This document shows positions 26,151 to 47,110 of a DNA stretch of 64,000 nucleotides, piece after piece. Source of the DNA: Bdellovibrionota bacterium (lineage in GTDB: Bacteria; Bdellovibrionota_C; UBA2361; OMII01). Numbering within the stretch: position 1 is the stretch's first letter; the number at the start of each line of letters is the position of its first letter. The position numbers and the translations under genes are program-made. The DNA lies in assembly GCA_044360195.1 (NCBI GenBank), contig JBIKKT010000015.1, positions 429 to 64,428 of the forward strand, read 5' to 3'. The notes beneath the pieces were generated by a model, which was not told the DNA's origin, made no database searches, and worked only from the letters and a program-made list of their open reading frames with translations.

Positions 26151-26286
26151 GAAAGTGACTGAACGTATGCCCGAGTGATGAAATGGTAGACATACAGGAC
26201 TTAAAATCCTGGGGGAGAAATCCCGTGTCGGTTCAAGTCCGACCTTGGGCAGTCTAATCAATCACTTACGGTCACTTTCTTTTAAG
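26144..26286. repeat. Perfect 16-bp inverted repeat flanking the island-borne tRNA
   Basis: CTTAAAAGAAAGTGAC (26144-26159) and GTCACTTTCTTTTAAG (26271-26286). Confidence 0.93.
26169..26251 (+). tRNA. tRNA-Leu (anticodon TAA), complete, island-borne; CCA not encoded
   Basis: Acceptor GCCCGAG/CTTGGGC-A, D-loop GG, anticodon stem CAGGA/TCCTG with loop CTTAAAA, variable arm GGGA-GAAA-TCCC, T arm GTCGG-TTCAAGT-CCGAC. Confidence 0.97.
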
Positions 26287-26303
26287 GCTCGTGCTACTGG
26301 TTT

Positions 26304-26400
26304 CATTCTCACTGAACCGTCCCGACGTACAGACGATCAACTAACCATCATTCTCACTCATTCTCATTAAGGTTCGCACAAATAACTCCGATGTTCTCAT
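26304..26400 (+). promoter_or_regulatory. Putative integrase arm-type binding sites (left end)
   Basis: TTCTCA at 26306, 26351, 26361 and 26394. ATTCTCACTCATTCTCATTAAGG closely mirrors the right-end ATTCTCACTCTGTTCTCATTGAGG. Confidence 0.6.
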
Positions 26401-26419
26401 CGAGAAGGAGCGAACTAAG

Positions 26420-30697: not shown

Positions 30698-30712
30698 TGT
30701 CAGGAGTTCTCG

Positions 30713-33612: not shown

Positions 33613-33657
33613 GACCATTTGTGGAGTCTGTTGTCTACCGCTCTAACCAGAAATGAC

Positions 33658-34599
33658 ATGAAGATAGATCGAATGGTGGTTGATCGGTTTATCCGCCACT
33701 ATGCAGGCGCCTTCGATCTGCCCTTCGAGTTAAAGCTGGTTCCCGAAGATGATAGCGCCACACCTGCAAACCAGCGGATAGAGGCGATATATGAAGTTGG
33801 CAGGGTCGCCGTTCATGTCGAACACACCTCCTTCGATATGTTTCACTCTGGTGCTTCTCCAAAGCGTGAGCTTGATGAGGGTTTTAAGGAGTTGGAGTCA
33901 GTTCTGGTCCAAGCGGACTTTCCCTGTCATCCAGGTTTGGTAGTGTTTGTGAGTATGAAGGCGGTTGCTAATCGAAAGAAGCTGCAAGGATGCTTTGACG
34001 ACATTATCGGTGGTATTCATTCATTCTTACGACGTGTAGAAGATACCACAGTTAACTGTGAGCCATACAAGGCTACTAGGCTCCGGTGCGGAAGTATCGA
34101 GTTATCGGTTTGTCTAGACCCACTGCTAGAAGGTAAGACTTCTCTTGAGTACGTCGCTTCATCCGAGAATCGGTATAGCTCGTCGGAGCTCATTAAAATG
34201 TATCAGAAAGCCTTTGCTAAAAAGGTTGAAAAGCTGGGGAGGTCGGTTAGCTATCACGGAGGAGGAGGGATTGGGCTTCTCTTGATAGAGAATCATGATG
34301 TGGCAGTGCAGAGTCCGTTTGTCTTTGACCGAATGTTCAACGAGACTCTGAGGGAGTCTAACGATGGTTGCCATGAGGTTTGGCTTTTGAGGTCCGGGCA
34401 CCGCTCGCTACTGTGGCTGAGAGAATACGATCTGATGCATTGCGACGGAAGTCGTGTGGATTTATCGACTGCTCAATATGCGCTCTCTCATCGAGAACAG
34501 CGATGGCGCCTATGGCGGGAGAGTCGTGAAAAGATGTTTAGCTGTGACGTCACTAACAAGATACCTCAAGGGACCCCGAATCGCCTCGAAGTTGACTAA
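33658..34599 (+). CDS. Hypothetical protein, possible PD-(D/E)xK-like nuclease
   Basis: Co-oriented directly after hsdS. PE...IE......VEHTS pattern and a later LLLIE.D motif. ATG 33658 preferred over TTG 33619. Confidence 0.6.
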   Translation: MKIDRMVVDRFIRHYAGAFDLPFELKLVPEDDSATPANQRIEAIYEVGRVAVHVEHTSFDMFHSGASPKRELDEGFKELESVLVQADFPCHPGLVVFVSMKAVANRKKLQGCFDDIIGGIHSFLRRVEDTTVNCEPYKATRLRCGSIELSVCLDPLLEGKTSLEYVASSENRYSSSELIKMYQKAFAKKVEKLGRSVSYHGGGGIGLLLIENHDVAVQSPFVFDRMFNETLRESNDGCHEVWLLRSGHRSLLWLREYDLMHCDGSRVDLSTAQYALSHREQRWRLWRESREKMFSCDVTNKIPQGTPNRLEVD

Positions 34600-34937: not shown

Positions 34938-35158
34938 GATTTGAATTCCGACCTGATCTTGAGCGACGTTTACAGCTTGCCATGGGGCAGCTGACCTCTA
35001 TAAAGTTGAGTTAACTGGTCGCAATTCCGTGCTTTTGGGGATATTTGTTGACCATGGATATCGGGCTCTCGGCTTATTCAAAGCGGATATTTCTTCATCT
35101 GTAGAGAAAATCCGCATCGTCGTTACCTTGTGAGAGCTGGTTTGAAAGAGGATTGACG

Positions 35159-37084
35159 GTGGATACGACAGGACAGTGCTTGGGTTTTCTGAGCAGAGGT
35201 GAGTTCACGAAGGGCTGTTCCGTGTTGGGAATCGAGGCCCCTCTCTTTTTATGGGTAGGCTGCTTCGTTCTTTTTGTCACTACTTTTATTTTCCTTTTTC
35301 GGCTCTTTTATTTATCCCATCCAATTATAACCACGCTCAAGCGGCTTACGAGAAAGATAGGCGAGATACAGCCAATTAACAGACCTCTAGACGGAGTAGG
35401 GCTAGAGGAACTACGCCTTCTAATGCAGGATGAGAAGCTAGTTGCTGATGCATGGGGGGAATTCGACGAAACACTTCTCGTGCACCGTGATGAGCGCCAG
35501 GAATTTATTTTTAATACGGGCCAAGCGGATGATTACTTCTCAAAGGAAGCACTCCTAGGTGGGCGAATTAATTTGTCGTTTTATGCTGCATATCCGGGAA
35601 TTCTGACAAGTGTTGGATTGCTTCTCACATTCGTTGCCATTTTGTACGGTCTTTCTGGGATTAAGTTAGATGGAGGGGAGGCAGGCAAGATAGTCGGAGT
35701 AGAGACGCTTGTTACTAGTCTGTCGGGCAAGTTCATTTCGTCCATCTGCGCTCTCGGTTTGGCCGTGATCTTCACCTTTGTAGAGAAGAGAAGGGAGAGT
35801 CTCATCTCGGAAAGCGTTCATGGATTTATACGAGCACTTAATCGAAAGTTATCTCGTCGCCCTGCAGAGCATATCCTTCAGCTAATTCAAAGAGACATCA
35901 GTGAGCAATCGATAGCCTTTCGACAGTTTGGAACTGATTTGTCCGGTCATCTGAAAGAGAGTTTTAGTGAGAGCATGGGGCCCCACTTTCAAAAGGTGGC
36001 AGAGGCTGTCGAAGAACTGCGTAGGCAAAAGTCCGAGAGCATCACTGACTCGCTAGCACAAGTGGTGTCTGAGTTTAAGGGTGCTCTAATGGGCTCTACA
36101 AATTCCGAGTTCAAAAGTTTGGAGTCGACTTTAGCGAGAACTGCGGAAACGCTTAATGTAATGAATAGTCAGAGTAAGGCATCTCAGGAAAAGATGTCAG
36201 AGGTGTTGGAAAGTCTTGATGCTGCTATTTCAAAACAATCGTCGACTGGTCAGGAACACTTGGCAAGGCTTGCGACCACTATGGAGATGGTGATTGATAA
36301 ACTTCAAAATGCCGCATCAGAGTCCTCGACAACACTCGGTGCGTCGGTAGCATCGATGATTCAGCAATTAAAAGCTGGCTTCTCAGAGCAAAGTGCCGAA
36401 ATGGCAAGACGAAATGATGAGTTGGCATCTTTAATGCGGGTCATGATAGAGCAGTTTCAGTCAAGTCTTAACCAATCGTCTTCATCTGTATCATCTACGG
36501 CTCAGACGCTCATGGAAAAGAGTTCTGAATTTACTACTAAGGCTACTGATCAGATTATTTCGGTGCTTGAGCAACAAACGCTAAATGCGCAGGCGATAGC
36601 AGATGCGAGAGTTAGCCTGAATGATGCGTTGAATATTTTTAGGGAGGCCATAAGTGAGGGCGCTGCCACGCTAGATGGCATGGGCTCAGCGTCTTCTTCA
36701 GTGAAGGACGGTATGTCGATTCTGAACAATGCATTGAAGAGCCTTGAGGGAACTCAAGACAAGGCGACTGATTTGGTGTCTCTTGTGGATAAGAATGCCA
36801 ACAATCTCAGAAGCGTCATTGATAGTCAGGCGGAGATCGTCACCAAATACGAAAGTGTTGTTCGAGAATTGGATCGCAGCTTGAGTTCTGTTTTGATGCA
36901 GGTTACGTCGAGCATAGAAAACTACTCTTCGAAGGTTAAGAGTAGCCTTCAGGATACATTGAGCCAATTCGACGAACATCTAACCAACGCCACTTCTAAG
37001 CTGGGGGGAACAGTTCAGGACCTTAGTGAGAGTCTAGAGGATTTGGTTGATCTGGCTTCTCGCTCTAAAGGGGCGTCAACATGA
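35159..37084 (+). CDS. zorA: Zorya protein ZorA (MotA-like TM domain plus long helical tail)
   Basis: Three TM segments (YPGILTSVGLLLTF..IL.GL, LSGKFISSI.ALG.A..F) followed by ~420 aa of heptad-rich helical tail. GTG start after GAGG. Confidence 0.92.
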   Translation: MDTTGQCLGFLSRGEFTKGCSVLGIEAPLFLWVGCFVLFVTTFIFLFRLFYLSHPIITTLKRLTRKIGEIQPINRPLDGVGLEELRLLMQDEKLVADAWGEFDETLLVHRDERQEFIFNTGQADDYFSKEALLGGRINLSFYAAYPGILTSVGLLLTFVAILYGLSGIKLDGGEAGKIVGVETLVTSLSGKFISSICALGLAVIFTFVEKRRESLISESVHGFIRALNRKLSRRPAEHILQLIQRDISEQSIAFRQFGTDLSGHLKESFSESMGPHFQKVAEAVEELRRQKSESITDSLAQVVSEFKGALMGSTNSEFKSLESTLARTAETLNVMNSQSKASQEKMSEVLESLDAAISKQSSTGQEHLARLATTMEMVIDKLQNAASESSTTLGASVASMIQQLKAGFSEQSAEMARRNDELASLMRVMIEQFQSSLNQSSSSVSSTAQTLMEKSSEFTTKATDQIISVLEQQTLNAQAIADARVSLNDALNIFREAISEGAATLDGMGSASSSVKDGMSILNNALKSLEGTQDKATDLVSLVDKNANNLRSVIDSQAEIVTKYESVVRELDRSLSSVLMQVTSSIENYSSKVKSSLQDTLSQFDEHLTNATSKLGGTVQDLSESLEDLVDLASRSKGAST

Positions 37085-37737
37085 GTGATGTTCACTCGTC
37101 ACTCAACAGCTCGTTGACGGATATGATGACCTCCTTGATGGTCATATTCGTTCTGCTTTTGGTGCACTATCTCGGAAGTAAGCAGGATGAGGTGAAGGCG
37201 GCGCAAAGCAAGACCGAGCTTATGAAGGAGCAGCTGGTTGAAAATTTTAAAGCAGCTCACATCGAGGGCATCGATTTCAAAAACGAAGGCAAATACACTC
37301 TCATCGTCATAGTGCCGGAGGACAAACTACAATTTGAGGTTGGTAATAACCAATTGAACTCAAGTGCAAATGACTTCCTGCAAAAATTTATCCCGGCTTT
37401 GCTCGATGCTTACATGGTATTCAAAGATGATGTCAGTTTTGTGAATGTTGAAGGGCACTCGGATCCAAAGCTCAAGAGGGATGCTACCAACGAGTACTAC
37501 AATTGGGATCTAAGCCAAGAGCGAGCCAGTGCCGTAATGAAATTTATTTTCAATCTTCACAAAGGCTCAGAGGCGACAGAGCTATTCAAAAAGAAATCAC
37601 TTTTTGGGGGGCGAGGTCCTATAGAATGCGAACACAGTGCCGAATCAGAGGAGTCAGTACGGAAAAGATGTCGTACGGTGAAATTTAAGATACGAATGAA
37701 ATCGAGCGAGGAAGCTCAAGCGGATAAGGATCGTTGA
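37081..37737 (+). CDS. zorB: Zorya protein ZorB (MotB/OmpA-like)
   Basis: TM helix with conserved Asp (SLTDMMTSLMVIFVLL) and OmpA-like domain (VEGHSD, NWDLSQERA.AV). Confidence 0.93.
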   Translation: MSDVHSSLNSSLTDMMTSLMVIFVLLLVHYLGSKQDEVKAAQSKTELMKEQLVENFKAAHIEGIDFKNEGKYTLIVIVPEDKLQFEVGNNQLNSSANDFLQKFIPALLDAYMVFKDDVSFVNVEGHSDPKLKRDATNEYYNWDLSQERASAVMKFIFNLHKGSEATELFKKKSLFGGRGPIECEHSAESEESVRKRCRTVKFKIRMKSSEEAQADKDR

Positions 37738-39116
37738 TGTTCGGATCACGACGATATTCATCAGACAATGCTACGATGCTGCCTGAATTCTTACGTGCAG
37801 TTCGGGAGCTTGATTTTCTTACCATTTCAAATGCCCCTAACGATCATGTTCCTTTTGACGACCAATCGCTCGCTTGTCCCAAGTTGGCTGCTTTAACCAA
37901 GTCGCTTGGGAGTTCGGTATCTACTGAAATCGTAGTCCTAGACGAAGCAGCTACCGTAACACGATGGAGAGAGCTTAAATCTAGTGCAGATAGTGCCAAG
38001 ATGTCAGCTAGGGACTGTAAAAGATTTTATTGGGTGCCCGAAATAGTGAGCGATCCGCAATTTCAGCACTTAGTTGCAGAGAGGAGTATACCTCTGACAG
38101 TGTCCTCACTGCGAGGGTTGATGTACTGCTATCACCAGAGGTTTGGTGAGCTTTCAATAGATAGCACATTTAATTCGCTGCTCATCGATGCAATCCAAGA
38201 TAAGGCTAATTCAAGGGCCGTAATAAGATCTTGGCTTGATTCAATAGAGTGTTTGGTGGGGGAGAAGGCGCCTCAGCTATTAGCCAAGCGAGCTTATGAG
38301 GAGTTTGCGTTTCCCGAGCAGACTCTCGATGGCTTCGGTTTTAGTGCGGATACAGTTACCGATTTTTCTTCTCGTTTTGCCGGTGAGTTAGCAATTCGCA
38401 TGGCGGGTCGCTACGAGACGATACCGGACGAGCGCCTCCGTTATGCATTGGATGGGTTTCTGGGGTCAAATCTGGTTCGGAGAGAGGCCTTTAACGAGGC
38501 TATATCGGAAATTATTACGAGCAGAAAGGCTGAACGAAGTGAGTTCGTTCAGGAGATTCTAATCGATTTCCTTCTCGAAAAACACGGGCTGGGTGACCCT
38601 CGAATAGAAAAGTGGACGGGAATAGAGGACGCTGCAACGAACAGAGTTATTCAGTGGTTATCGAGAGAGGATATTGATTTCTTTTTTAAGCTCCTACTTG
38701 GAGATAAACAGGATAAACACGGCAGAAAAGCATTTTGGCTCCAGTACGTTGATAAAGTTGCTCGCTCTCGTGCTCTAATATCGAAAGAGGATATTAGAGA
38801 TCATTCGGTTCGGCTGCGAGAGATGGAAGAGAAGGGCCGTTCGTACGGCCGTCTTGATGGTGCGAATTCCTCGAGTTCATTTATTCTCGATTTTGGTCGA
38901 GTTGTTGTCGTGGAATTCAGTGAAGTCGGAAACGCCTGCTACATTTACACTAAAAATGACTTCTTGGAATTAGTTCCCGATTTTTGGGCTAAGGACGTTT
39001 CATTTCGTAGCCTGAAAAATCAGGCAAAGGTTTCTGAAAGAATTACAAGAAGTGTCAAGGATTGGCAGGCGAATGCTCGACAGATCCTGTCTCGATATGG
39101 AGTGCGACGTGGCTAA
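37737..39116 (+). CDS. zorC: Zorya protein ZorC (EH-signature domain)
   Basis: LGDPR...W, IQWLS..DIDFFF, RKAFWLQY, VVVEFSEVGNACYIY. Translationally coupled to zorB. Confidence 0.9.
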   Translation: MFGSRRYSSDNATMLPEFLRAVRELDFLTISNAPNDHVPFDDQSLACPKLAALTKSLGSSVSTEIVVLDEAATVTRWRELKSSADSAKMSARDCKRFYWVPEIVSDPQFQHLVAERSIPLTVSSLRGLMYCYHQRFGELSIDSTFNSLLIDAIQDKANSRAVIRSWLDSIECLVGEKAPQLLAKRAYEEFAFPEQTLDGFGFSADTVTDFSSRFAGELAIRMAGRYETIPDERLRYALDGFLGSNLVRREAFNEAISEIITSRKAERSEFVQEILIDFLLEKHGLGDPRIEKWTGIEDAATNRVIQWLSREDIDFFFKLLLGDKQDKHGRKAFWLQYVDKVARSRALISKEDIRDHSVRLREMEEKGRSYGRLDGANSSSSFILDFGRVVVVEFSEVGNACYIYTKNDFLELVPDFWAKDVSFRSLKNQAKVSERITRSVKDWQANARQILSRYGVRRG

Positions 39117-42100
39117 GAGTGGTGATTCTCGTTTCTTGATTGCTTTGCTAGCTGAAGATCTTCACCTGATAGCTTCAGATAATGGACTGCACATATGTTA
39201 CATGGGCTCAGATCGCAGTATCGATTTGAGCAACAGAGCGGATTGGCGGAAACTGGGTTCGACGACTAGTCAAGGCCAGCTTTTGGCGCAGTCACTCGAC
39301 TTTCTGCTTCAGGAAGACCTTCTTAGGCTGGACAATCAAGGGCTTCATCTTGATTACGTGAACCTAAAGCACCTTGCTGAGGTCGGAGTCGACTTCATAG
39401 AAAAGTTGGTACCATGGGCTCCCTTTTCGATTCACGTTCGTGGTTCAGGAGTAATCGGTTCGAATGGGTTTCGTCTATCGTATGAGTTCATGCTTGGAAA
39501 GCTGCACTCGTTTCCTGTGAGGTTTGGACCATTTTTGATTAGGGGAGACCGAGCATACCGTTTGTCTCCGACTAACTTTGACATTGTTGAGATTGTAGAT
39601 TCGTTTAATAGCCTCAGTCAGAACGAGAAGGATAAAGAGGCCTCTCTGCGCTGTATATCTCGGATAAAGGAGTTGATGGGCAGCGAAGGGCTGGATTCCT
39701 ACTTGGACCGAGAGGGAATCGTGATTCCTCAGAAAGTTAAGGTTGAACTCTCTCTTGAATCAAACGGATTCGTGTCTTTATTTCCAGGATTCGAGGGAGT
39801 GTCTTCTGAGAGAATGAGACATGAGTTCTTTCGACTTGGAGAGGTTCAAAGAATTTACGATCTGCCGACGGATGATGGTCATCGGGTCAGAGTTCTCATC
39901 TCAGAAGAGATCTCTGCAATTCTGTCAGATATGCAGAAATATCGGATGGTCGGTGGTGCTACGAGGGATGCCGTCCTTGCCAATGTTATTGAGTGTTTTT
40001 CCGACGGCGTAAATCGAGATCTGATTGAGCTTGTTGATTTTGCTCCAAGAGTAAAGGGTATTTGTTCCGTCCCGGAACGCTCTCAACTTCTGTTGAATAC
40101 AGAGAGTCGGTGTTGGGAGGGCGTATCGGAGGAGGATGTTGGGCTCGCAGCAGCTGCGGAGAAGCCTTTAATACTAAAGGTGTTTTCTGATGAAAATGTC
40201 GAGATTCCGATGTCCTTCAAAGAGTTCAGGAGTTTCGCTCGGCAAGTTGCAGAGGCGCAGGCGCAGGATTCGGCGCAGGTTCGCTTCGGAAGTAGCAATG
40301 TGCTCATCAACGATGCTCTAGTGGAGCAGATTAAAGAGATTGAAAAGAGATTAGACCGACGCAAGGCTGGTGGAATCGATATTAAGCAGGAAGCCCGAGA
40401 CTGTCAGGTTTTGGATATTCATCAGAATTTCGATCAAACAAGTTACTCCGAGGGGTCTTTGGATAGTATTGAGTCTCTATGGAACCAGCCACAGATACCA
40501 AAAAGCCTCCGGAGCACAAGGGTTAACAAAAGGGGGGAGACCGAGTCTTTTCAGCTGAAATCGCACCAGTATGAGGGAGTGCTGTGGCTTCAAAACCTCT
40601 TCCGCAATCGGTTGCGGAGACGGGGTTGTCTTCTAGCCGATGATATGGGCCTTGGAAAGACGCTCCAGGTGCTCACATTTTTGGCCTGGTGCATTGAGTC
40701 TGGATATAGGAAGGGCCTGGGAGAAGATATCCCACCATACGAGCCGATATTGATTGTAGCTCCTATTATTCTTTTGAAGAACTGGCAGACGGAAATGGAG
40801 GGGTTCTTTGATCATGATATCTTTTCTCCGTCTGTAACTTTGTACGGTTCGACGCTAAGACAGTATAGCCTTGATTCAAAGAAGATGGGCAGGGAGACGA
40901 AAGACGGCAAACAGAGGCTGGATCTCGATCGAATTCGTGAGAATCGAATCGTGATAACGAACTACGACACGGTCAAGAACTACCAACATAGCCTAGCGAA
41001 AGTGCCATGGTCTATTATTGTGACAGATGAAGCGCAGGAGTTTAAGATTCAGAACCAGAAGTCGGACGCTCTTAAAGCGCTCAAGGCTCACTTCCGAATT
41101 GTGGCAACGGGTACTCCTGTTGAAAATAGATTGCTGGATTTGTGGAATCTTGTTGATTTTATGCACCCTGGGTCGTTGTTGGGCTCTGCAAAAGGTTTTT
41201 ATGAAAGATTCGAGAAGGATGTTGCTAATAAGTCAATCGAGGAAAAAAAGGTTCTCACCCGAGAGCTGCGTGAGGCTCTGTATTATGACAGACCAGATGC
41301 CTTTGTAATGCGGAGAGATAAGGAAAGCCAACTGAAAACGGAGCTTCCCTCAAAGATCGAACATCGCATCACCTGTCCCATGCCTGAATCCTTTAAAAGA
41401 ATGCACCTTGATATCGTTCAGCAGTTCAAGGAGAGCATGTCTGATGTTCATCACTTTACCCTGATTGACTCACTGAAGAAGCTGTATCTTCATCCTCGTC
41501 TATTAGAAAGACCGCAACCCGTCGATGACATCAAGTCTCTAGTCGGAGAGAGTCCCAAACTTGAAGCCTTAATAAAGACTCTGGAAGATATTCGATCGAA
41601 GAAGGAGAAGGTGCTGATCTTTACCGAGTATGTCGACCTGCAGACAATGCTTGCTGAAGTTCTTGGAGTTTATTTTGGGCTTAAAATTGAGATTATCAGT
41701 GGTTCCTCAATAGTGGAACGAACACGAGTTTCTGAGCGTCGGCAACAGGCGATAGACGACTTTGAGGCAAAGGAAGGTTTTAACATTCTAATCCTTTCGC
41801 CAAAGGTGGCGGGAGTAGGGCTTACGATAGTTGGTGCGAACCACGTGATTCATTATCAGCGGTGGTGGAATCCAGCGAAGGAGGCTCAAGCCACCGACCG
41901 AGCTTATAGAATTGGACAGAAGAAAGATGTTCATGTGTATTATTTTATAATCACAGATCCTGCGGGCGAGGTCATTTCTTTCGATCAGACTCTGGATAAG
42001 TTACTGCTTGAAAAGCGGGAGCTAGCAAAAGATTTCTTGATCCCAAGGGAAAGCGTTGAGATCAGCACGAGCGAGGTAGCAGATAAAGTTCAGGGTGAAA

Positions 42101-42627
42101 ATGCTGCGGAATCCTCGATTCGACAAGGAAAGAGTCTAGCCATTGTGAAAACGTTGGGAGATGTCGATAGGCTTTCTCCCCACCAATTCGAGGCCTTGAT
42201 TGCGCTAATCTACAGGCGTAAGGGGTTGCTTACGGTTCTAGGCCCGCTGACTAATGACGGAGGAGCCGATTTGTTGATTGTGGGTTTGAGTGACCTCGTA
42301 TACGTGCAATGCAAGCACTCTAGTTGCCTAACTCAGCAGACCGCTCGGGCCGTTCGAGATTTAGAGGAGGCTCCCGATGTATATCGTAGAGATGTGCTAT
42401 CTACCAATCTCAGGAGAAGGATGCCTCAAAGAGTTGCCTGGACAAACTCTACGTTTGACCAAGAGACACGTGCGATGGCAGCTCGTCATGGGATTGAGCT
42501 TCGGGAAGGTAAACATCTGGAGGCGGAGCTCAAGACTGCAGAGATTCACCTTGGGGCCATTCTTGAGATGGAGGCTGAGAGGTTTGGAAGCCTTAAAGAT
42601 ATACGGGCGGCTCTAAAGCACCTGTAA
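39109..42627 (+). CDS. zorD: Zorya protein ZorD (SNF2 helicase/ATPase plus C-terminal Mrr-like nuclease)
   Basis: LLADDMGLGKT, DEAQ, TGTPVEN, WWNPAKE.QATDRAYRIGQ; C-terminal FE.LIA...DGGAD...QCKH. Probable GTG start at 39109. Confidence 0.93.
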   Translation: MAKSGDSRFLIALLAEDLHLIASDNGLHICYMGSDRSIDLSNRADWRKLGSTTSQGQLLAQSLDFLLQEDLLRLDNQGLHLDYVNLKHLAEVGVDFIEKLVPWAPFSIHVRGSGVIGSNGFRLSYEFMLGKLHSFPVRFGPFLIRGDRAYRLSPTNFDIVEIVDSFNSLSQNEKDKEASLRCISRIKELMGSEGLDSYLDREGIVIPQKVKVELSLESNGFVSLFPGFEGVSSERMRHEFFRLGEVQRIYDLPTDDGHRVRVLISEEISAILSDMQKYRMVGGATRDAVLANVIECFSDGVNRDLIELVDFAPRVKGICSVPERSQLLLNTESRCWEGVSEEDVGLAAAAEKPLILKVFSDENVEIPMSFKEFRSFARQVAEAQAQDSAQVRFGSSNVLINDALVEQIKEIEKRLDRRKAGGIDIKQEARDCQVLDIHQNFDQTSYSEGSLDSIESLWNQPQIPKSLRSTRVNKRGETESFQLKSHQYEGVLWLQNLFRNRLRRRGCLLADDMGLGKTLQVLTFLAWCIESGYRKGLGEDIPPYEPILIVAPIILLKNWQTEMEGFFDHDIFSPSVTLYGSTLRQYSLDSKKMGRETKDGKQRLDLDRIRENRIVITNYDTVKNYQHSLAKVPWSIIVTDEAQEFKIQNQKSDALKALKAHFRIVATGTPVENRLLDLWNLVDFMHPGSLLGSAKGFYERFEKDVANKSIEEKKVLTRELREALYYDRPDAFVMRRDKESQLKTELPSKIEHRITCPMPESFKRMHLDIVQQFKESMSDVHHFTLIDSLKKLYLHPRLLERPQPVDDIKSLVGESPKLEALIKTLEDIRSKKEKVLIFTEYVDLQTMLAEVLGVYFGLKIEIISGSSIVERTRVSERRQQAIDDFEAKEGFNILILSPKVAGVGLTIVGANHVIHYQRWWNPAKEAQATDRAYRIGQKKDVHVYYFIITDPAGEVISFDQTLDKLLLEKRELAKDFLIPRESVEISTSEVADKVQGENAAESSIRQGKSLAIVKTLGDVDRLSPHQFEALIALIYRRKGLLTVLGPLTNDGGADLLIVGLSDLVYVQCKHSSCLTQQTARAVRDLEEAPDVYRRDVLSTNLRRRMPQRVAWTNSTFDQETRAMAARHGIELREGKHLEAELKTAEIHLGAILEMEAERFGSLKDIRAALKHL

Positions 42628-42670: not shown

Positions 42671-42946
42671 CTAAACACGAAGGGCTTTCTCAATGGCCGT
42701 CAATTCTTCAGCTACTCGATAGAGAAATTGCACGACCTGTAGGTGTTGCTCATGCTTGGTGAGAACTATGTTGATGTGGATCTCCATACCATCTTGGTTA
42801 ATGTCGAAGAGCTTTGAGAGAGATGGACTGTAAGCATCTTCACTAAGGGGGGCTTCTCGTTTATGGAACTGTTTGAACTTCATTAGGGCCATCTCTGATC
42901 TTTTCTCTGTAAGGCTAGTCGGGCATTCAATCAACACGTTACTCAC
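42671..42946 (-). CDS. Small hypothetical protein (91 aa)
   Basis: GTG start overlaps the stop of the upstream ORF; third gene of the small-ORF operon. Confidence 0.6.
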   Translation of the reverse strand: MSNVLIECPTSLTEKRSEMALMKFKQFHKREAPLSEDAYSPSLSKLFDINQDGMEIHINIVLTKHEQHLQVVQFLYRVAEELTAIEKALRV

Positions 42947-43134
42947 TGCTCCACAATAATAACTAGAACGTCTCGATAATCTTTGATCGCTAAATCAAGC
43001 TCTCTTATAACCTTGGCTCGCAATCGTTGCTTCTTGGATATTTCCAATGCTCGTTCGATCTCATGTATGTAGAGTGCCTTGGGTTTTGTCTCTGACAGCT
43101 TTCTAGCAGCTTCTTGTTTTGTGGTTTTCGACAT
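42943..43134 (-). CDS. Small basic hypothetical protein (63 aa)
   Basis: GAGGA RBS before ATG; helical, K/R/E-rich. Confidence 0.65.
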   Translation of the reverse strand: MSKTTKQEAARKLSETKPKALYIHEIERALEISKKQRLRAKVIRELDLAIKDYRDVLVIIVEQ

Positions 43135-43168
43135 AGATCCTCGTTCACATTAAAGGTGATACCCCGTG

Positions 43169-43408
43169 CTAGTAGTCACGCTCATGAAGATATTTATCGA
43201 GCTTTAGTTTCGTGGCTTTCAGTGATTCCTGCTGTTGAAGGAAGGCGTCGAGACTAAGAAGCTCTTCATCAATCTTGGCTTTGAGAAACATTCTGATAAG
43301 GGCTAGCCGTGTGATGCGTCTGGATTGTGCGAGCGTGTTCAGATCTTCAATCCATTGAGGTTCTAATAAGAGTCTTAGCTGAGTGAATTTAGGCTTCTTT
43401 ATAGACAT
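43169..43408 (-). CDS. Small protein, ribbon-helix-helix (CopG-like) DNA-binding candidate
   Basis: FTQLRLLL (beta) - WIEDLNTLAQSRRI - TRLALIRMFL pattern; AAGGAAG RBS. Confidence 0.65.
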   Translation of the reverse strand: MSIKKPKFTQLRLLLEPQWIEDLNTLAQSRRITRLALIRMFLKAKIDEELLSLDAFLQQQESLKATKLKLDKYLHERDY

Positions 43409-43456
43409 CGGTTTTTCTTCCTTAATGACTTTTATTTTGTATCTACACTGTATAGC

Positions 43457-43464
43457 TATTTATA
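43457..43464 (-). promoter_or_regulatory. T4-late-type promoter box TATAAATA (candidate) upstream of the small-ORF operon
   Basis: Exact TATAAATA on the minus strand, 48 nt before ATG 43408, with no sigma70 -35 at 17-nt spacing. Confidence 0.5.
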
Positions 43465-43495
43465 AGGGTTCTAATCTGAAAAGAGATCTCAGAAG

Positions 43496-43529
43496 CATCG
43501 TGATTCTCACGATGACGAGCTTCGCTCGT
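43496..43529 (-). other. Two abutting perfect hairpins with GAA triloops on the minus strand
   Basis: Plus strand CATCGTGA-TTC-TCACGATG directly followed by ACGAGC-TTC-GCTCGT. The minus strand contains GCGAAGC. Confidence 0.8.
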
Positions 43530-43584
43530 GGTTTAGTTTGAGTTCTGTTTGTAGGGCCTGTTTTCAAATCTTTTAATGACTTTC

Positions 43585-44005
43585 ATAGTGTGCGGTAGTT
43601 TTGAGATACACTTCGCCCATCAAAGGCGAAGATGATGATGTGCGTATAGCTCATCGATACTTTGTGTTTGCACGTAGCTCCTTTTGAGAGCGAGGGCGGT
43701 TGGGCGGTCTCCTCGTAAGTGCAGCTCGCTGGTGTCCTAGCGGCAAGCATCATCAAAGCCAACACAACGACTTCGAGTGCTTTGCGAGTTCCAAGTGTAG
43801 GGATTGCTCGCATCGTGATGGATCGCATTTTCATTATTAAAGCCACCTGTGGTCGTTCTACGCCGTGAAAGTTCCATCTTACTTTGGGCACTTGGACAGG
43901 TGTGCGACTTAGGGGAGTCAATGGAAGTATGACTGCAAGATCTTATTGGGTCGCTATTTTCGAAACTCAGCTCAGTGCTTTATTAGTGGCTGAGTCGAGT
44001 TTCTG
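43585..44005 (-). ncRNA. Candidate large structured non-coding RNA (~420 nt)
   Basis: At least ten nested stems and two pseudoknot-type pairings (see findings). Begins just downstream of TATAAATA. Confidence 0.6.
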
Positions 44006-44010
44006 TACTC

Positions 44011-44018
44011 TATTTATA
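44011..44018 (-). promoter_or_regulatory. T4-late-type promoter box TATAAATA (candidate) upstream of the structured RNA
   Basis: Exact TATAAATA on the minus strand, 7 nt before the first stem, with no -35. Preceded by a GCCTC/GAGGC hairpin (44033-44049). Confidence 0.5.
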
Positions 44019-44244
44019 CAATTTTAAAGCTCGCCTCGTTTATGGAGGCAGATTTTTCAATTACATATTAGGGCCGGCTATTTGGAATGGTCTGTCTCCT
44101 CAGTCTCACTACGGGGTCGCAAGAGAGTTCGGCGTGATGGTAAGGAAGCGTTCCGATAAACTCGCTGTTCTATGGATCCATTTTAGGTGTCTTCAAATCA
44201 GCTCTCCCCGATTGGTAACGCATTCCTTACCTAGTGGCTTTTAG

Positions 44245-44886
44245 TTAGGACGATCTGACGAGCACTGCATGATGCCCGAGATTGTCAAGATTACCCTCAG
44301 CCATTATTCCCTTGAGCGTGGCCAACTGTTCTTGGGTCAGTCGTCCGAGCATCATGGAAAGCATGTATCGGTCGCAGGCAACCCCGCAATGCTCCGTAGG
44401 TTCAACAAGTCGACCATGCCCGTCTCTGTAGAATTTTACCTTGAGGTAGAGCTCTGGCTCTGCCGGCGGGTAGAGATCTATGAAAGGCTTTGGATTGACT
44501 TCGACTACCTCCGCAACGAAGAGGCCGAAAGAGGAGAAGGCAGACCAATTGCCAAGCACATGGCAACCCACAAGGGCTGCTACGGAGGTCTTTAGGGATA
44601 AATCTACAAGGTACGTGACGATTGTGTGATCTCTTCGACGCAGCTCATCTGACCATTCGTGAGTTATGAGAAAGGGAGTACTTTGGCTCTCGCTAATCTC
44701 GTTGCACACCTCAATTATTTTATCCCGAGTAAACCCTCTGAAAAATCGTAGAGGGATCTGTATTCCTTCTTGTTGGCTAGACGTCGGCATATTGTCGGCT
44801 CCAACCTCAAGGGATCGGTCAATCAAGTACTGAAGCACCTGATTTCGTACTCGATCTCTCTTTGAATTAATCGTTTTCTTAACCAT
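44245..44886 (-). CDS. Hypothetical protein (~213 aa)
   Basis: Long ORF; ATG 44886 has AAAGG upstream (ORF track starts at 44982). No recognised motif. Confidence 0.65.
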   Translation of the reverse strand: MVKKTINSKRDRVRNQVLQYLIDRSLEVGADNMPTSSQQEGIQIPLRFFRGFTRDKIIEVCNEISESQSTPFLITHEWSDELRRRDHTIVTYLVDLSLKTSVAALVGCHVLGNWSAFSSFGLFVAEVVEVNPKPFIDLYPPAEPELYLKVKFYRDGHGRLVEPTEHCGVACDRYMLSMMLGRLTQEQLATLKGIMAEGNLDNLGHHAVLVRSS

Positions 44887-44993
44887 ATTATTAACCTTTA
44901 AAAAATACAGAGCGTTAGGGCTAACGTGCTGTATGTATTGTTTAATTAAGGGGTTAGTGCACAAACTATTGTTCATGCACATACCAAGCTTGA

Positions 44994-45132: not shown

Positions 45133-45819
45133 ATGAATGTTTTCGCATACCTAAGGGTAAGTACCTCAAGACAGGCTGAGGATGGGCTCTCTATAGAAGT
45201 TCAGGAGCAGCAGCTTGAGGCTTATGCGAACTTGCACAACCTCTCTGTAAACCGATGGCTGAGAGACCGTGGAATCTCTGGATCCATACCCCTAAGTGAT
45301 AGACCTATGGGAAAGCAGCTCCTAGAGGAGGTGCGCTCTGGTGACGTGGTCATCGCAGCTAAGTTGGATCGTATGTTCCGAAATGCCAGAGATGCTTTGA
45401 ACACTTTGGAAGCCCTCAAGAACAAGGGGGTAGCACTGCATTTCATCGATCTTGGGGGAGATGTCTGTAATGGTATCGGCAAGCTAGTCTTTACGATTCT
45501 TTCGGCTGTGGCAGAGCAAGAGCGGAGCAGAATTAGGGAGCGCATCTCTGAGGCAAAGAAGCAGATGCGAGACGAGAACCGTTATCAGGGTGGGAAGATA
45601 CCCTTTGGATATCGAGTTAATTCTGAGAACCAGCTAGTAGAGGACGAGCTCCAGCAGAGATGCATCATCTTCATGCGGGCGAAGCGAAAAGAGGGGTTGG
45701 CTTACAGAATGATTAGCGACCTCTTAAGAAAGGAGCTCGGCGTTGCTTTATCGCATTCGGGTATACGGAAGATCCTCATCGGTGAGAGACGAACCGATGA
45801 TGCAGATAATCAGAAATGA
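45133..45819 (+). CDS. Serine recombinase (resolvase/invertase family)
   Basis: YLRVST..Q, D.GISG, KLDRMFR, AVAEQER..IRER, GG.IPFGY. Confidence 0.95.
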   Translation: MNVFAYLRVSTSRQAEDGLSIEVQEQQLEAYANLHNLSVNRWLRDRGISGSIPLSDRPMGKQLLEEVRSGDVVIAAKLDRMFRNARDALNTLEALKNKGVALHFIDLGGDVCNGIGKLVFTILSAVAEQERSRIRERISEAKKQMRDENRYQGGKIPFGYRVNSENQLVEDELQQRCIIFMRAKRKEGLAYRMISDLLRKELGVALSHSGIRKILIGERRTDDADNQK

Positions 45820-45890: not shown

Positions 45891-46808
45891 ATGGCACCAT
45901 TCAACGAAGACCTCCCTAGATCCAAGCAAGTCGGTAAGAAAGCAATTTTTACTGCGCTTACTATTCTTAAAGAGAATGGTGGTCAGATGCGTGGTCGTGA
46001 AGCAATCGATGCTGTTGGTCGACGTCTTGATTTGGATAGCTGGGCACGGGAGCGTTATTCAAAGAGTGGCTATGTTCGATGGGAGTCGATTCTTCATTTC
46101 GAGACTATTGCTTGCGTCAAAGCTGGGTTCCTTATTAAGAAAAAGGGTTCGTGGTTCCTTACTCCTGAGGGCGAAGCAGCGATTGCGCTAGGGGAGGACT
46201 CTCTTTATTCGAAGGCAGCAGCGGCATACGCAATATGGAAGGCAAGTCTCCCTCGTGAAGTAGAGCAAGTTCAAACCGAAGAGGAGTCGTCTGCTGAAGA
46301 GCAAGCGATTGTCGATACAAACAAGGCGCTGGAGCAAACCGAGCAGCTCGCATACGATCAAATCGAAGGCTTCATTGATCGATTGAACGCCTACGAGTTT
46401 CAAGACCTCGTGGCAGCATTGTTGCGAGGGATGGGCTACTACACTCCGTTTGTGGCTCCGACGGGCAAGGATGGTGGTGTTGATATCGTTGCATATCGAG
46501 ATCCACTCGGTACTCAGACGCCTCGGATCAAAGTCCAAATCAAGCATCGAGACTCGACGGCACGAGTCGATGAGGTGCGACAGTTAATGGGATTACTTCA
46601 GAAAGACGGAGACGTTGGCATTTTCGTCTCTACGGGTGGTTTCACTCCAGACTGTCGTTCAACAGCCCGAGGTTCTCACGTTCATGTGGAGTTGATAGAC
46701 TTGAGTCGCTTTATCAATTTGTGGCAAGAATTTTACCCGAAGCTGACAGACGAGGATAAAGCTCGACTTCCATTGGTATCGATTTACTTCTTGGCTCCTC
46801 AAGACTAG
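45891..46808 (+). CDS. mrr: Mrr-family (type IV) restriction endonuclease
   Basis: N-terminal winged-helix (Mrr_N-like; KAG...KKG.W.LT.EG) and catalytic FQDLVA.LL..MGY, DGGVDI, VQIKH, FVSTGGFT. Confidence 0.92.
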   Translation: MAPFNEDLPRSKQVGKKAIFTALTILKENGGQMRGREAIDAVGRRLDLDSWARERYSKSGYVRWESILHFETIACVKAGFLIKKKGSWFLTPEGEAAIALGEDSLYSKAAAAYAIWKASLPREVEQVQTEEESSAEEQAIVDTNKALEQTEQLAYDQIEGFIDRLNAYEFQDLVAALLRGMGYYTPFVAPTGKDGGVDIVAYRDPLGTQTPRIKVQIKHRDSTARVDEVRQLMGLLQKDGDVGIFVSTGGFTPDCRSTARGSHVHVELIDLSRFINLWQEFYPKLTDEDKARLPLVSIYFLAPQD

Positions 46809-46815
46809 CTGGAAC

Positions 46816-47003
46816 GTTCTCATCCTATTCTCAGCTCGTGATTTTCTTGCTTCCTCAGAGTGCCTAAACTACATTCTCACCCTGCGAACTCAAAAAGAGC
46901 AGCAAGTGAGAACAAGCATTTACATCGGACTATTCTCACTCTGTTCTCATTGAGGGAGTGCGCTTGTAGGTAGTTGAAACGAGGCTGGAATCAGTTCGCA
47001 CAA
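46816..47003 (+). promoter_or_regulatory. Putative integrase arm-type binding sites (right end)
   Basis: TTCTCA at 46817, 46828, 46874, 46933 and 46944, plus inverted TGAGAA at 46907. GTTCGCACAA (46994-47003) is also present at the left end (26372-26381). Confidence 0.6.
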
Positions 47004-47007
47004 GCTT

Positions 47008-47059
47008 CTTAAAATCCCGGGATCGAAAGGTCGTGTCGGTTCGAGTCCGACCTTGGGCA
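47008..47059 (+). pseudogene. 3' half of the original host tRNA-Leu(TAA), beginning at attR
   Basis: CTTAAAA-TCCCG-GGATCGAAAGGTC-GT-GTCGGTTCGAGTCCGAC-CTTGGGC-A. Confidence 0.93.
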
Positions 47060-47110
47060 CTCTAAGCAGTTCAATTACCGAAGCCATCTGTGGTAAGACT
47101 GTAGCCGACG

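What the first reader, a model, noticed from the sequence alone, without database searches (positions are those of the whole stretch)
43585..44018. Large, densely structured and apparently pseudoknotted non-coding RNA behind a phage-late-type promoter inside the island
Seen (plus-strand coordinates; the RNA would be minus strand): 5' stem GAAACTC-AG-CTCAG/CTGAG-TC-GAGTTTC (43962-44003), starting 7 nt after TATAAATA. Domain 2: TCGCA/TGCGA (43823-27/43903-07) stacked on CACCTGT/ACAGGTG (43844-50/43896-902), and TGCGAG/CTCGCA (43783-88/43807-12). The loop of the latter (CCAAGTG, 43791-97) is perfectly complementary to CACTTGG (43889-95) in the loop of the former, giving a kissing-loop pseudoknot. 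A second crossing pair is TTCCAT/ATGGAA (43872-77/43921-26). Domain 3: TTTGA/TCAAA (43600-04/43753-57), TGATGATG/CATCATCA (43633-40/43748-55), CTTCGCC/GGCGAAG (43611-31), TGCAC/GTGCA (43669-73/43719-23) enclosing GCTC/GAGC and CGAGG/CCTCG, and CGCT/AGCG. Only a weak TTG-start ORF overlaps it. I do not see RNase P, tmRNA, SRP or group I/II intron signatures. Inference: an undescribed large ncRNA or ssDNA origin/packaging element of a mobile element, possibly expressed only during phage infection.
Basis: partly seen in the sequence, partly recalled or inferred. Interest (0 to 1): 0.88.

Follow-up and report, generated by a model that had tools for sequence, protein, structure and literature searches.

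The report
New large structured RNA in island
A roughly 515-base stretch with no gene call inside an integrated defence island looks like the gene for a previously undescribed, intricately folded and pseudoknotted RNA, shared by a small family of such islands and sitting where sister islands carry a protein gene instead.

Summary
Window 43490-44021 (minus strand) has no conserved ORF, yet its 228-nt core is the best-conserved part of a four-part module: RNA, a ribbon-helix-helix (RHH) gene and two small genes.

I found 13 copies in three subfamilies. One is a second copy in this genome. All lie in tRNA-integrated islands of Bdellovibrionota-labelled genomes, directly upstream of the RHH operon.

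On a model-fitted alignment, 24 of 56 core pairs change on both sides and stay paired. Shuffles give a mean of 8.5, and 0 of 500 reach 24. Slid controls give 1-6.

It joins the P5 loop to the linker after P7.

Its kissing loop is only partly conserved.

No Rfam family matches any subfamily.

Sister islands share the integrase and the RHH operon but carry a weakly Rep-like protein gene in this slot.

My best reading is a discrete RNA gene of the island backbone that works with the RHH module in island propagation or maintenance. Expression is unproven and the function is inferred.

The parts
44010..44021 (-). P1, a promoter-like motif TTGTATAAATAG (extended -10 type). The presumed transcription start is about 44006.
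   Evidence: TATAAATAG occurs only twice in the 64-kb window, here and at 43456-43464 (0.32 expected). It is kept at the 5' edge in window types A, B and D and, as TATAAATAG or TATAAAATAG, in L034, L042 and L048. It is absent in type C. Promoter activity is inferred, not shown.
43962..44003 (-). 5'-terminal hairpin (P1 stem)
   Evidence: Inverted repeat I1, 14 nt, 86% complementary. It is in the minimum-free-energy fold. A hairpin of different sequence stands at the same place in 9 of 10 sequences folded.
43904..43954 (-). P2 helix GCGAC (43954-43950) with GUCGC (43908-43904), enclosing a variable hairpin
   Evidence: Invariant in the 9 subfamily-1 sequences. L042 has ACGAC/GUCGU (changed on both sides) and L038 has GUGAC/GUCGC (wobble).
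43844..43902 (-). P3 helix CACCUGU/ACAGGUG, closing a variable domain
   Evidence: Type B has ACAUUCG/CGAAUGU, type D has CGAUAG/CUAUCG and type C has only CGAU/AUCG. Each helix taken alone is weak (43 to 1931 of 2000 shuffles reach it).
43590..43817 (-). Conserved 228-nt core: hairpins P4, P5, P6, P7 (with P7a and P7b), P9 and P10, plus conserved single strands
   Evidence: Mean pairwise identity is 0.84-0.94, against 0.47-0.88 in the three protein genes. Sense-strand z is -2.1 to -5.3. Covariance model R1 finds L034 (47 bits), L042 (25.8) and L048 (24.7) over its full length. 24 of 56 pairs change on both sides.
43783..43812 (-). P4 hairpin UGCGAG/CUCGCA, with a 20-nt loop that contains CACUUGG
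   Evidence: The stem is GCGAG/CUCGC in subfamily 1, CUGAG/CUCAG in L034, GUAGG/CCUAC in L042 and GCGGG/CCCGC in L038. The long loop is kept only in subfamily 1 and L034.
43662..43767 (-). Pseudoknot: P5 apical loop UUGUGUU (43767-43761) pairs with AACACAA (43668-43662) in the linker after P7
   Evidence: Inverted repeat I2. The cognate Watson-Crick runs are 7 bp in subfamily 1, 8 bp in L034 (UCUUCUUG/CAAGAAGA), 8 bp in L042 (CAAUCUCU/AGAGAUUG) and 7 bp in L048. Shuffled linkers reach these in 151, 2, 8 and 16 of 5000 trials. Subfamily-1 and L034 loops against other lineages' linkers give only 2-5 bp.
43611..43631 (-). P10 hairpin CUUCGCCU/GGGCGAAG
   Evidence: 8 bp in every lineage, with different letters: L034 has CUUUGCCC/GGGCAAAG and L042 has AUACACCC/GGGUGUAU.
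43496..43529 (-). Two terminal hairpins: HpA CGAGC-GAA-GCUCG (43529-43515) and HpB CAUCGUGA-GAA-UCACGAUG (43514-43496). They are the presumed 3' end of the RNA, or a palindromic operator.
   Evidence: This is the most conserved 40 nt of the module (0.99). The arms differ between subfamilies but stay complementary. HpA is broken in L003 (3 of 5 pairs). No run of U follows, so the role as a terminator is an inference. A 10-nt copy of the HpB 3' arm stands at the start of the core (D9).
43456..43464 (-). P2, a second TATAAATAG motif about 45 nt before the RHH start codon
   Evidence: TATAAATA lies 39-48 nt before the ATG in 7 of 14 distant RHH loci whose upstream DNA was available. These include loci without the RNA.
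43169..43408 (-). 79-aa RHH-like protein gene, always directly downstream of the RNA
   Evidence: Weak, below-cutoff hits only: DUF6364 and 'LexA regulated protein'. One database source names a homologue as a RelB/DinJ-type antitoxin. It is found in 18 of 124 genomes of the phylum. The RHH fold is my own reading of the sequence.
42671..43134 (-). Two small genes of unknown family (63 aa at 42943-43134; 91 aa at 42671-42946), in an operon with the RHH gene
   Evidence: No family in Pfam, PHROGs, NCBIfam or PADLOC. They are syntenic in RNA-bearing and RNA-less loci.

Best explanation
Window about 44006 to about 43490 (minus strand) is the gene of a discrete structured RNA of roughly 515 nt with no known family.

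Shown:
- It is non-coding.
- Its core is under stronger constraint than the neighbouring genes.
- Its helices, and one pseudoknot, are kept by compensatory changes across three diverged subfamilies.
- It belongs to the backbone of tRNA-integrated islands that carry defence cargo. Here the island runs from tRNA-Leu to the attR repeat, 26168-47065.
- It always lies immediately upstream of, and in the same direction as, an operon of an RHH gene and two small genes.

Inferred:
- It is transcribed from its own TATAAATAG-type promoter, the same motif that precedes the RHH operon.
- It begins with a protective or regulatory 5' hairpin and ends at two hairpins before the operon's promoter.
- It acts as a folded RNA (a protein-binding or catalytic scaffold) and not as an antisense regulator.
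- It works with the RHH module in the propagation or maintenance of the excised island, that is, in replication, mobilisation or their control.

The reason for the last inference is synteny. Sister islands have the same tRNA site, integrase and RHH operon, but hold a weakly Rep-like protein gene in exactly this slot.

My odds: about 0.85 that it is a real structured RNA; about 0.3 that its job is in DNA processing of the island. The confidence of 0.55 given for this explanation is for the whole statement in its general form: a discrete trans-acting RNA gene of the island backbone that works with the RHH module.
For: Conservation: the core is 0.84-0.94 identical, against 0.47-0.88 in the adjacent genes.

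Non-coding: every frame has at least 2 stops in all 9 close copies. The 112-aa ORF is stopped in types C and D, and the antisense ORF is frameshifted in L015. Variable columns fall 18/16/24 over the codon positions, against 45/35/64 in the RHH gene. Subfamily 2 gives 81/91/77 and has many 1-nt indels.

Structure: sense-strand core z is -2.1 to -5.3. Model R1 finds diverged copies end to end. 94.5% of cells are paired, and 24 of 56 pairs change on both sides. Shuffles give a mean of 8.5 and 0 of 500 reach 24; slid partners give 1-6. Ten helices are collinear and complementary in 8 representatives. The pseudoknot has three different sequence solutions. Cells with G-U number 43 and cells with A-C number 12, which favours the strand that P1 would transcribe.

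Transcription unit: the P1 motif followed by a 5' hairpin recurs across lineages. A terminator-like hairpin of the upstream gene stands just before P1 (44033-44049).

Context: all 13 copies lie upstream of the RHH operon. L051 (RNA) and L062 (Rep-like gene) share tRNA-His plus integrase at 75% and the P2-RHH operon at 76%. They differ only in the segment between.
Against: No transcript has been seen; promoter, start and end are all inferred.

The alignment used was fitted to the model's structure, which inflates pairing. The helix table was picked by hand.

Only about 5 independent lineages exist, so no R-scape-type statistic is possible.

The 5' domain does not fold better than shuffles.

Neither terminal hairpin is followed by a U run. 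HpB is a perfect palindrome that could equally be a DNA operator.

The 'Rep-like' label of the alternative cassette is weak. Pfam REP_ORF2-G2P scores E 8e-5 to 0.04 and RepSA scores 0.003 to 0.05, all below the curated cut-offs. The AlphaFold model has pLDDT 56 and the Foldseek search was uninformative.

The RNA and the Rep-like gene never occur in the same genome (0 shared, 7 and 7 of 124 genomes). With these numbers, about 0.4 shared genomes are expected by chance, so this is not significant.

The window's own island lacks the short tyrosine recombinase that accompanies many copies.
Confidence: 0.55

Rival explanations
1. It is a very long cis-acting leader of the RHH operon, working like a riboswitch or T-box. 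The core senses a ligand, protein or RNA. It then decides whether transcription or processing proceeds past hairpins HpA and HpB into the operon.
For: The RNA is always co-directional with the operon and directly upstream of it. In each subfamily one arm of HpB is repeated at the 5' border of the core, so the other arm could pair there instead and close the core. Subfamily 1 repeats a 10-nt AUCACGAUGC (D9). L048 has GUUCAA and L034 has UGAGCAA (my reading). That is the logic of an expression platform. The tail UGUAUCU(C) is complementary to (G)AGAUACA in the operon's 5' UTR in all 5 subfamily-1 sequences tested and in L042.
Against: The operon keeps its own conserved P2 motif and upstream region in islands that have no RNA. 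No U tract follows HpB. The tail-to-UTR match is missing in L034, L048 and L038, and AGAUACA is also present in RNA-less loci. The repeats could instead be operator half-sites.
Confidence: 0.2
2. The element works as DNA and not as RNA. It could be a single-strand origin, an oriT or replication origin, or a cluster of protein-binding sites of the excised island, whose hairpins form in single-stranded or supercoiled DNA.
For: Hairpins kept by compensatory change are also expected for folded ssDNA sites. HpB is a perfect 8+3+8 palindrome with a third half-site 300 bp away. Sister islands carry a weakly Rep-like gene here, and origins often lie beside such genes (general knowledge, recalled).
Against: The strand that folds is the one a conserved promoter motif would transcribe, bounded by a 5' hairpin and terminal hairpins. 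Conserved unpaired stretches and a loop-to-linker pseudoknot are typical of RNA tertiary folds. No Rep-like gene was found in any of the 7 genomes that carry the RNA. No iterons or tandem repeats were found.
Confidence: 0.1
3. The RNA is part of an anti-phage or addiction system together with the three small proteins. It could be an RNA antitoxin or an infection sensor with the RHH protein as regulator, possibly switched on by a phage late-transcription factor through the TATAAATA motifs.
For: The module sits among defence cargo: type I restriction-modification, Zorya type I and Mrr in the window, and other systems elsewhere. RHH proteins are common antitoxins; one source names a homologue that way. 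TATAAATA equals the T4 late-promoter consensus (recalled).
Against: The module is the constant part of the islands while the defence genes vary. That fits a backbone function. PADLOC has no hit for the four proteins. The RNA has no tandem repeats as in type III systems. The same operon works without the RNA in other islands. The motif is not enriched in the genome.
Confidence: 0.07
4. It has no function: chance stems in a spacer, or the decayed remains of a gene.
For: The 5' domain folds no better than shuffles. ORFs of 49-120 aa appear in single sequences.
Against: It is the most conserved part of the module. There is deep covariation. No frame is kept.
Confidence: 0.03

Closest known systems
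sgm-sRNA of Salmonella genomic island 1 (PMC9299015; I read the abstract, found passages and part 1 of the Discussion)
   Same: Both are non-coding RNAs encoded in the backbone of an integrative, non-self-transmissible island, with their own promoter. The SGI1 primary transcript is 650-700 nt. It has a terminator-like inverted repeat close to the 5' end and ends at an inverted repeat before the next operon. It lies beside DNA-processing genes of the tyrosine-recombinase family and a resolvase. The paper says it acts differently from classical base-pairing sRNAs. Many copies here lie next to a 194-aa tyrosine recombinase that has only the catalytic domain, and a resolvase.
   Different: No sequence or structure comparison with SGI1 was possible here, so homology is untested. 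The operon downstream here encodes an RHH protein and two small proteins, not MpsA and MpsB. The short recombinase is divergent, is absent from 5 of 13 RNA loci including the window, and is present in one RNA-less locus. Its plasmid homologues are mostly on plasmids typed non-mobilizable (211 of 381). No oriT is known here.
Orphan large structured bacterial RNAs in Rfam (GOLLD, ROOL, OLE, HEARO, raiA). Names are recalled; PMC12286853 and PMC10861870 were seen only in search listings.
   Same: It is over 400 nt with many helices, a pseudoknot, conserved unpaired nucleotides, a link to mobile DNA or tRNA-adjacent loci, and unknown biochemistry.
   Different: No Rfam 15 model matches any subfamily, even at E up to 10 for the window slice and up to 1 for the others. 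Distribution is narrow: 7 of 124 genomes of one phylum, plus 1 genome contig and 4 metagenome contigs.
ColE1-type primer RNA II with RNA I and Rom (recalled, not tested)
   Same: RNA II is a folded RNA of about 550 nt with its own promoter, whose structure decides whether replication starts without a Rep protein, and a 63-aa helper protein gene lies nearby. Here a 515-590-nt folded RNA stands where sister islands have a Rep-like gene, followed by a 63-aa gene.
   Different: No antisense RNA I promoter, origin or RNase H site has been identified. No similarity to Rop/Rom was seen; Pfam gave no hit. ColE1 replicons are enterobacterial plasmids.
Immunity RNAs processed from leaders in satellites and phages (P4 CI, P1/P7 C4; recalled)
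   Same: They are RNAs made from the leader of an operon of a tRNA-integrated element with defence hotspots. They pair with repeated sequences in the same transcript.
   Different: Those RNAs are about 70-80 nt. No match to any Rfam family was obtained. The repeat-to-target relation here is only partial.

Membership tests
Any described RNA family (Rfam 15: RNase P, tmRNA, SRP, group I/II introns, GOLLD, ROOL, OLE, HEARO, raiA, C4, ribozymes and others) | A covariance-model match at or near the family's gathering score | tested here: not met
   Whole window at gathering score: only tRNA-Leu. Window 43100-44500 at E up to 10: one 18.9-bit CRISPR-repeat hit outside the element. L053, L054, L055 and L034 at E up to 1: none. 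ARAGORN finds no tmRNA.
SGI1-type mobilisation RNA (sgm-sRNA) | Encoded between a tyrosine-recombinase-type relaxase gene and oriT of an integrative mobilisable island | tested here: inconclusive
   A 194-aa catalytic-domain-only tyrosine recombinase is adjacent in L002, L004, L011, L015, L019 and L052, and lies 2.9 kb away in L049. None was found near the RNA in the window, L003, L018, L050 or L051. No oriT is defined.
SGI1-type mobilisation RNA (sgm-sRNA) | Required in trans for conjugative mobilisation | not testable with these tools
   Needs mating assays.
Riboswitch or attenuator leader | Mutually exclusive terminator and anti-terminator pairing next to a conserved sensor domain | tested here: inconclusive
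   An alternative pairing of one HpB arm with the border of the core exists in subfamily 1 (10-nt repeat D9), and by eye in L034 and L048. There is no U tract, and a separate conserved promoter motif follows.
Single-strand origin (sso) of rolling-circle elements | Sits in an element that encodes a rolling-circle Rep or relaxase | tested here: not met
   Profile A7 of the Rep-like protein finds nothing at E 1e-5 or better in the 7 RNA-bearing genomes. Other Rep or relaxase families were not searched.
Type III toxin-antitoxin RNA | Tandem direct repeats of about 34-36 nt upstream of an endoribonuclease toxin gene | tested here: not met
   The repeat finder shows only scattered 9-19-nt two- or three-copy matches. 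The downstream proteins have no PADLOC or Pfam family.
Retron msr-msd RNA | A reverse transcriptase gene immediately downstream | tested here: not met
   The downstream genes are the RHH and two small genes in all 13 copies. An RVT_1 fragment lies in the cargo of L049 only.
T4-type late promoter | TATAAATA at -10, read by a phage-encoded sigma factor | not testable with these tools
   The motif is present at P1 and P2, but it fits an ordinary extended -10 equally well. It occurs 26 times in the genome, against 29 for the reversed control.

The most novel reading that the evidence does not exclude
The RNA is the functional replacement of a protein initiator. In these islands a folded RNA of 515-590 nt does the job that sister islands give to a Rep-like protein. 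It could do this as a Rep-independent primer or origin RNA of the excised circle. It could instead be an RNA partner that gives DNA-site recognition to proteins without a DNA-binding domain of their own, such as the catalytic-domain-only tyrosine recombinase. Either would be a new way for an integrative element to start its replication or transfer.
Probability: 0.15. Interest if true: 0.9.

Novelty: new variant of a known kind. Interest (0 to 1): 0.78.

Why it matters
New bacterial RNA classes longer than 400 nt, with a conserved multi-helix fold and a pseudoknot, are rare. In the past such classes have turned out to be ribozymes, ribonucleoprotein scaffolds or guide RNAs.

This one is a fixed backbone part of mobile islands that ferry defence systems in predatory-bacteria-related lineages. 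In the window the cargo is type I restriction-modification, Zorya and Mrr.

It alternates with a protein gene at one syntenic slot. That gives a direct experimental handle: swap the two cassettes and measure excision, circle copy number and transfer.

It also offers a second, independent example beside SGI1 of an island that needs, or at least keeps, a long non-coding RNA in its propagation module.

Tried and rejected
Expression. The look-up of sequencing runs listed no RNA holder. This says nothing either way.

Homology searches that gave nothing.
- Phage and plasmid collections by blastn.
- Four viral contigs pattern scans. The single hit, L029, is a bare 19-mer.
- L013 and L014 are chance 20-mers. 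L016 shares only a 35-nt stretch (91%) with the P4 hairpin.
- The core as a blastn query against 124 phylum genomes gave 4 real matches and 5 short matches of 20-32 nt at E 0.002-0.007, which I treat as chance.
- Model R1 over the phylum found nothing new and, under the stricter filters, missed subfamily 2.
- L038 scores only 7.7 bits with R1. I count it as a member on blastn to L049 (74% over 562 nt) and on the helix table.
- Alignment A6 contains many junk hits and was not used.

Coding. The sense 112-aa ORF and the antisense 'MQLAG...' ORF were both rejected. The sense ORFs in subfamily 2 were rejected too.

Proteins.
- ESM Atlas on the 91-aa protein gave no usable lead.
- A PDB profile search with the Rep-like alignment gave one hit at E 0.21.
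- The AlphaFold model of the Rep-like protein has pLDDT 56, and Foldseek returned only AcrB sub-domains at E 0.009 or worse.
- The RHH protein has no tblastn match in plasmids.

Ideas dropped.
- An obligate RNA plus short-recombinase pair: 5 of 13 RNA loci lack the recombinase nearby, and one RNA-less locus has it.
- RNA tail pairing with the operon's UTR as a general mechanism: it is absent in 3 lineages.
- TATAAATA as a genome-wide promoter class.

Papers. Four full-text searches listed nothing describing this RNA. In PMC11109978, 'Bdellovibrio', 'ribbon-helix', 'genomic island' and 'CopG' do not occur. Supplements were not seen and could hold motif lists.
Full report
**What is in the window.**
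Positions 43409-44244 form an 836-nt gap between two minus-strand ORFs: a 79-aa gene (43169-43408) and a 245-aa gene with no known family (44245-44982). The gap lies in a low-GC island (about 0.46 against about 0.53). The island is bounded by tRNA-Leu(UAA) at 26168-26252 and by a 34-nt repeat of the tRNA's 3' end at 47032-47065.

The island carries these genes:

| Feature | Coordinates |
|---|---|
| Integrase | 26420-27787 |
| Type I restriction-modification system | 27950-34599 |
| Zorya type I, ZorABCD | 35153-42627 |
| Resolvase | 45133-45819 |
| Mrr | 45891-46808 |

**The observation.**
When the stretch is split, the signal is in the core (43590-43817). It is stronger on the minus strand: sense z runs from -2.1 to -5.3 in five sequences, against -0.6 to -3.0 for antisense. 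The 5' domain is not significant. No Rfam 15 family matches, at gathering scores over the whole window or at E up to 10 over 43100-44500.

**Homologues.**
- Blastn found the region in 3 of 100 related genomes, all of the same genus (3 of 34).
- A 20-mer scan of genome contigs gave 6 stretches. Four are homologous and 2 are chance.
- A 20-mer scan of metagenome contigs gave 5 stretches. Four are homologous and one shares only 35 nt.
- After removing duplicates, 9 close copies remain ('subfamily 1'). They fall into four types of 5' domain: A is the window; B is L002, L017, L019 and L011; C is L003 and L018; D is L004 and L015.
- Titles of the public contigs read 'Bdellovibrionota bacterium', and one reads 'Pseudomonadales'.
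- Nothing matched in phage or plasmid collections, or in four viral-contig scans.

**Conservation and coding.**
In 40-nt windows over seven sequences, the core is 0.84-0.94 identical and the block 43491-43530 is 0.99. The three downstream protein genes are 0.47-0.88.

No reading frame is kept. All six frames have at least 2 stops in every copy. The 58 variable core columns fall 18/16/24 over codon positions, against 45/35/64 in the RHH gene.

**A wider family.**
The 79-aa protein has relatives of 24-56% identity in 18 of 124 genomes of the phylum. Upstream of four of them lies a diverged version of the same RNA:
- L034 is intermediate.
- L038, L042 and L048 form 'subfamily 2'.
- L048 is a second copy in the window's own genome, on contig C63 near tRNA-Thr.

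A covariance model of the subfamily-1 core (R1) matches L034 at 47 bits (E 2e-12), L042 at 25.8 bits (4e-6) and L048 at 24.7 bits (9e-6), each over the full model. L038 scores only 7.7 bits, but it is 74% identical to L048's region. In all there are 13 copies, and 7 of the 124 held genomes carry at least one. Subfamily 2 and L034 also have no conserved frame and no Rfam match.

**Structure.**
On the model-made alignment A5 (6 subfamily-1 sequences plus L034, L042 and L048), one search gives:

| Measure | Observed | Controls |
|---|---|---|
| Cells forming standard pairs | 94.5% | 36-42% with partners slid |
| Pairs (of 56) changed on both sides | 24 | Shuffled mean 8.5, 0 of 500 reach 24; slid partners 1-6 |

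That alignment was fitted to the structure, so these figures lean towards it.

A hand-made table of ten helices is collinear and almost fully complementary in eight representatives, with different letters in different lineages. The helices are P2, P4, P5, the pseudoknot, P7, P7a, P7b, P10, HpA and HpB.

| Helix | Subfamily 1 | L034 | Subfamily 2 |
|---|---|---|---|
| P4 | GCGAG/CUCGC | CUGAG/CUCAG | GUAGG/CCUAC (L042), GCGGG/CCCGC (L038) |
| P7a | CGAGG/CCUCG | UCGGU/ACCGA | AAGUG/CACUU |
| P10 | CUUCGCCU/GGGCGAAG | CUUUGCCC/GGGCAAAG | AUACACCC/GGGUGUAU (L042) |

G-U cells outnumber A-C cells 43 to 12, so the folded strand is the minus strand.

**The pseudoknot.**
The apical loop of P5 (43761-43767) is complementary to the single-stranded linker after P7 (43662-43668) (I2).

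| Lineage | Pairing | Watson-Crick run | Shuffled linkers reaching it (of 5000) |
|---|---|---|---|
| Subfamily 1 | UUGUGUU/AACACAA | 7 | 151 |
| L034 | UCUUCUUG/CAAGAAGA | 8 | 2 |
| L042 | CAAUCUCU/AGAGAUUG | 8 | 8 |
| L048 | AUCUCUU/AAGAGAU | 7 | 16 |
| L038 | 10 bp counting G-U | 4 | 841 |

Loops of subfamily 1 and L034, tested against the linkers of other lineages, give only 2-5 bp.

**The likely transcription unit (inferred).**
- TTGTATAAATAG (44021-44010) stands at the 5' edge. The same 9-mer occurs once more in the window, 45 nt before the RHH start codon.
- A hairpin of lineage-specific sequence follows the first motif in 9 of 10 sequences.
- A terminator-like hairpin of the upstream gene lies just before the motif.
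- After the core come an AU-rich variable stretch and two hairpins (43496-43529). Their arms differ between subfamilies but stay complementary.
- No U run follows them. HpB is a perfect palindrome, and its 3' arm is repeated at the start of the core (D9). It may therefore be an RNA end, a switch, or a DNA operator for the RHH protein. I cannot decide between these.

**Context.**
In every copy the order is RNA, RHH gene, 63-65-aa gene, 73-123-aa gene, often an excisionase-type HTH gene, and then variable cargo. A 194-aa tyrosine recombinase with only the catalytic domain lies divergently upstream in many loci but not all. A resolvase is frequent.

Islands with the RHH operon but without the RNA carry one of two proteins in the same place:
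- A 205-268-aa protein with weak, below-cutoff similarity to rolling-circle initiators (REP_ORF2-G2P, E 8e-5 to 0.04; RepSA, E 0.003 to 0.05). It has a conserved H-x-H followed by hydrophobic residues.
- A 160-217-aa protein with a similar H-Y-H motif.

L051 (with the RNA) and L062 (with the Rep-like gene) share tRNA-His, the integrase (75%) and the P2-RHH operon (76%). They differ only in the segment between. This is a clean cassette exchange. The Rep-like protein occurs in 7 of 124 genomes, and none of them is among the 7 that hold the RNA. With such numbers this exclusivity is not statistically meaningful.

**How it most likely works.**
The fold, the conserved unpaired stretches and the pseudoknot point to an RNA that acts through its shape. 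The constant position in the island backbone, the promoter motif shared with the RHH operon, and the exchange with a Rep-like gene point to a role in propagation or maintenance of the excised island, together with the RHH module.

The closest described case is the sgm-sRNA of Salmonella genomic island 1 (PMC9299015). There the primary transcript is 650-700 nt, with a 5'-proximal terminator-like repeat. It lies beside tyrosine-recombinase-type mobilisation genes and is needed for transfer by an unknown, non-classical mechanism. Membership in that family cannot be claimed: no sequence comparison was possible and the neighbouring genes differ.

The rivals are a giant cis-acting leader, a DNA-level origin or operator cluster, and a defence or addiction RNA.

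**Limits.**
- There are no expression data.
- There are about five independent lineages.
- One alignment was fitted to the model and one helix table was picked by hand.
- The functional argument rests on synteny and on a weakly supported label for the alternative cassette.

Noticed in passing
window 26168-26420 and 46800-47065: The island ends are a tRNA-Leu(UAA) gene and a 34-nt repeat of its 3' end (32 of 34 identical). Several copies of a (A/G)TTCTCA motif cluster just inside both ends. They may be arm-type binding sites for the integrase or an excision factor.
   Followed up: partly
L049 (own genome, contig C63) 9147-10575: A second, diverged copy of the whole module (RNA, RHH, 65-aa and 106-aa genes) lies in another island near tRNA-Thr (16623-16698). 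A resolvase and the 194-aa recombinase lie upstream. Downstream cargo includes an RVT_1 fragment (7198-7800) beside an RNase_T-type exonuclease gene (5825-7201).
   Followed up: partly
window 43495-43504 and 43810-43819: An exact 10-nt direct repeat (GCATCGTGAT on the plus strand) links the 3' arm of the HpB palindrome with the first bases of the conserved core. Analogous repeats of other sequence are visible in L034 and L048. Either the pairing is alternative (a switch), or these are repeated operator half-sites.
   Followed up: partly
window 43436-43452 and 43600-43610: The RNA tail UGUAUCU is complementary to AGAUACA in the 5' UTR of the RHH gene. This holds in all 5 subfamily-1 sequences tested and, over 8 bp, in L042, but not in L034, L048 or L038. 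AGAUACA is also kept in islands that lack the RNA.
   Followed up: yes
L062 7261-8821 against L051 2375-3328; also L037, L040 and L043: Sister islands at tRNA-His carry a 205-268-aa protein with an H-x-H-hydrophobic motif and sub-threshold Rep hits in place of the RNA. L036, L041 and L044 carry a different 160-217-aa protein with H-Y-H-L-L.
   Followed up: partly
window 44245-44982 (minus): This 245-aa ORF directly upstream of the RNA has no match in Pfam, PHROGs, NCBIfam or PADLOC, and no homologue in any other locus fetched. The genes at this position differ in every island type.
   Followed up: partly
L002 2304-2888 and homologues: The 194-aa catalytic-domain-only tyrosine recombinase has relatives of about 50% identity on 381 plasmid records. 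Most are from Acinetobacter (162), Piscirickettsia (154) and Legionella (25), annotated as site-specific integrases.
   Followed up: no
L016 2529-2562: An unrelated metagenome contig shares a 35-nt stretch (91%) with the P4 hairpin and its loop, but nothing else. This may be chance or a shared short motif.
   Followed up: no
L011: One close copy (79% over 1.15 kb, with the same gene order) is on a contig whose public title says Pseudomonadales. This is either transfer between phyla or a binning error.
   Followed up: no
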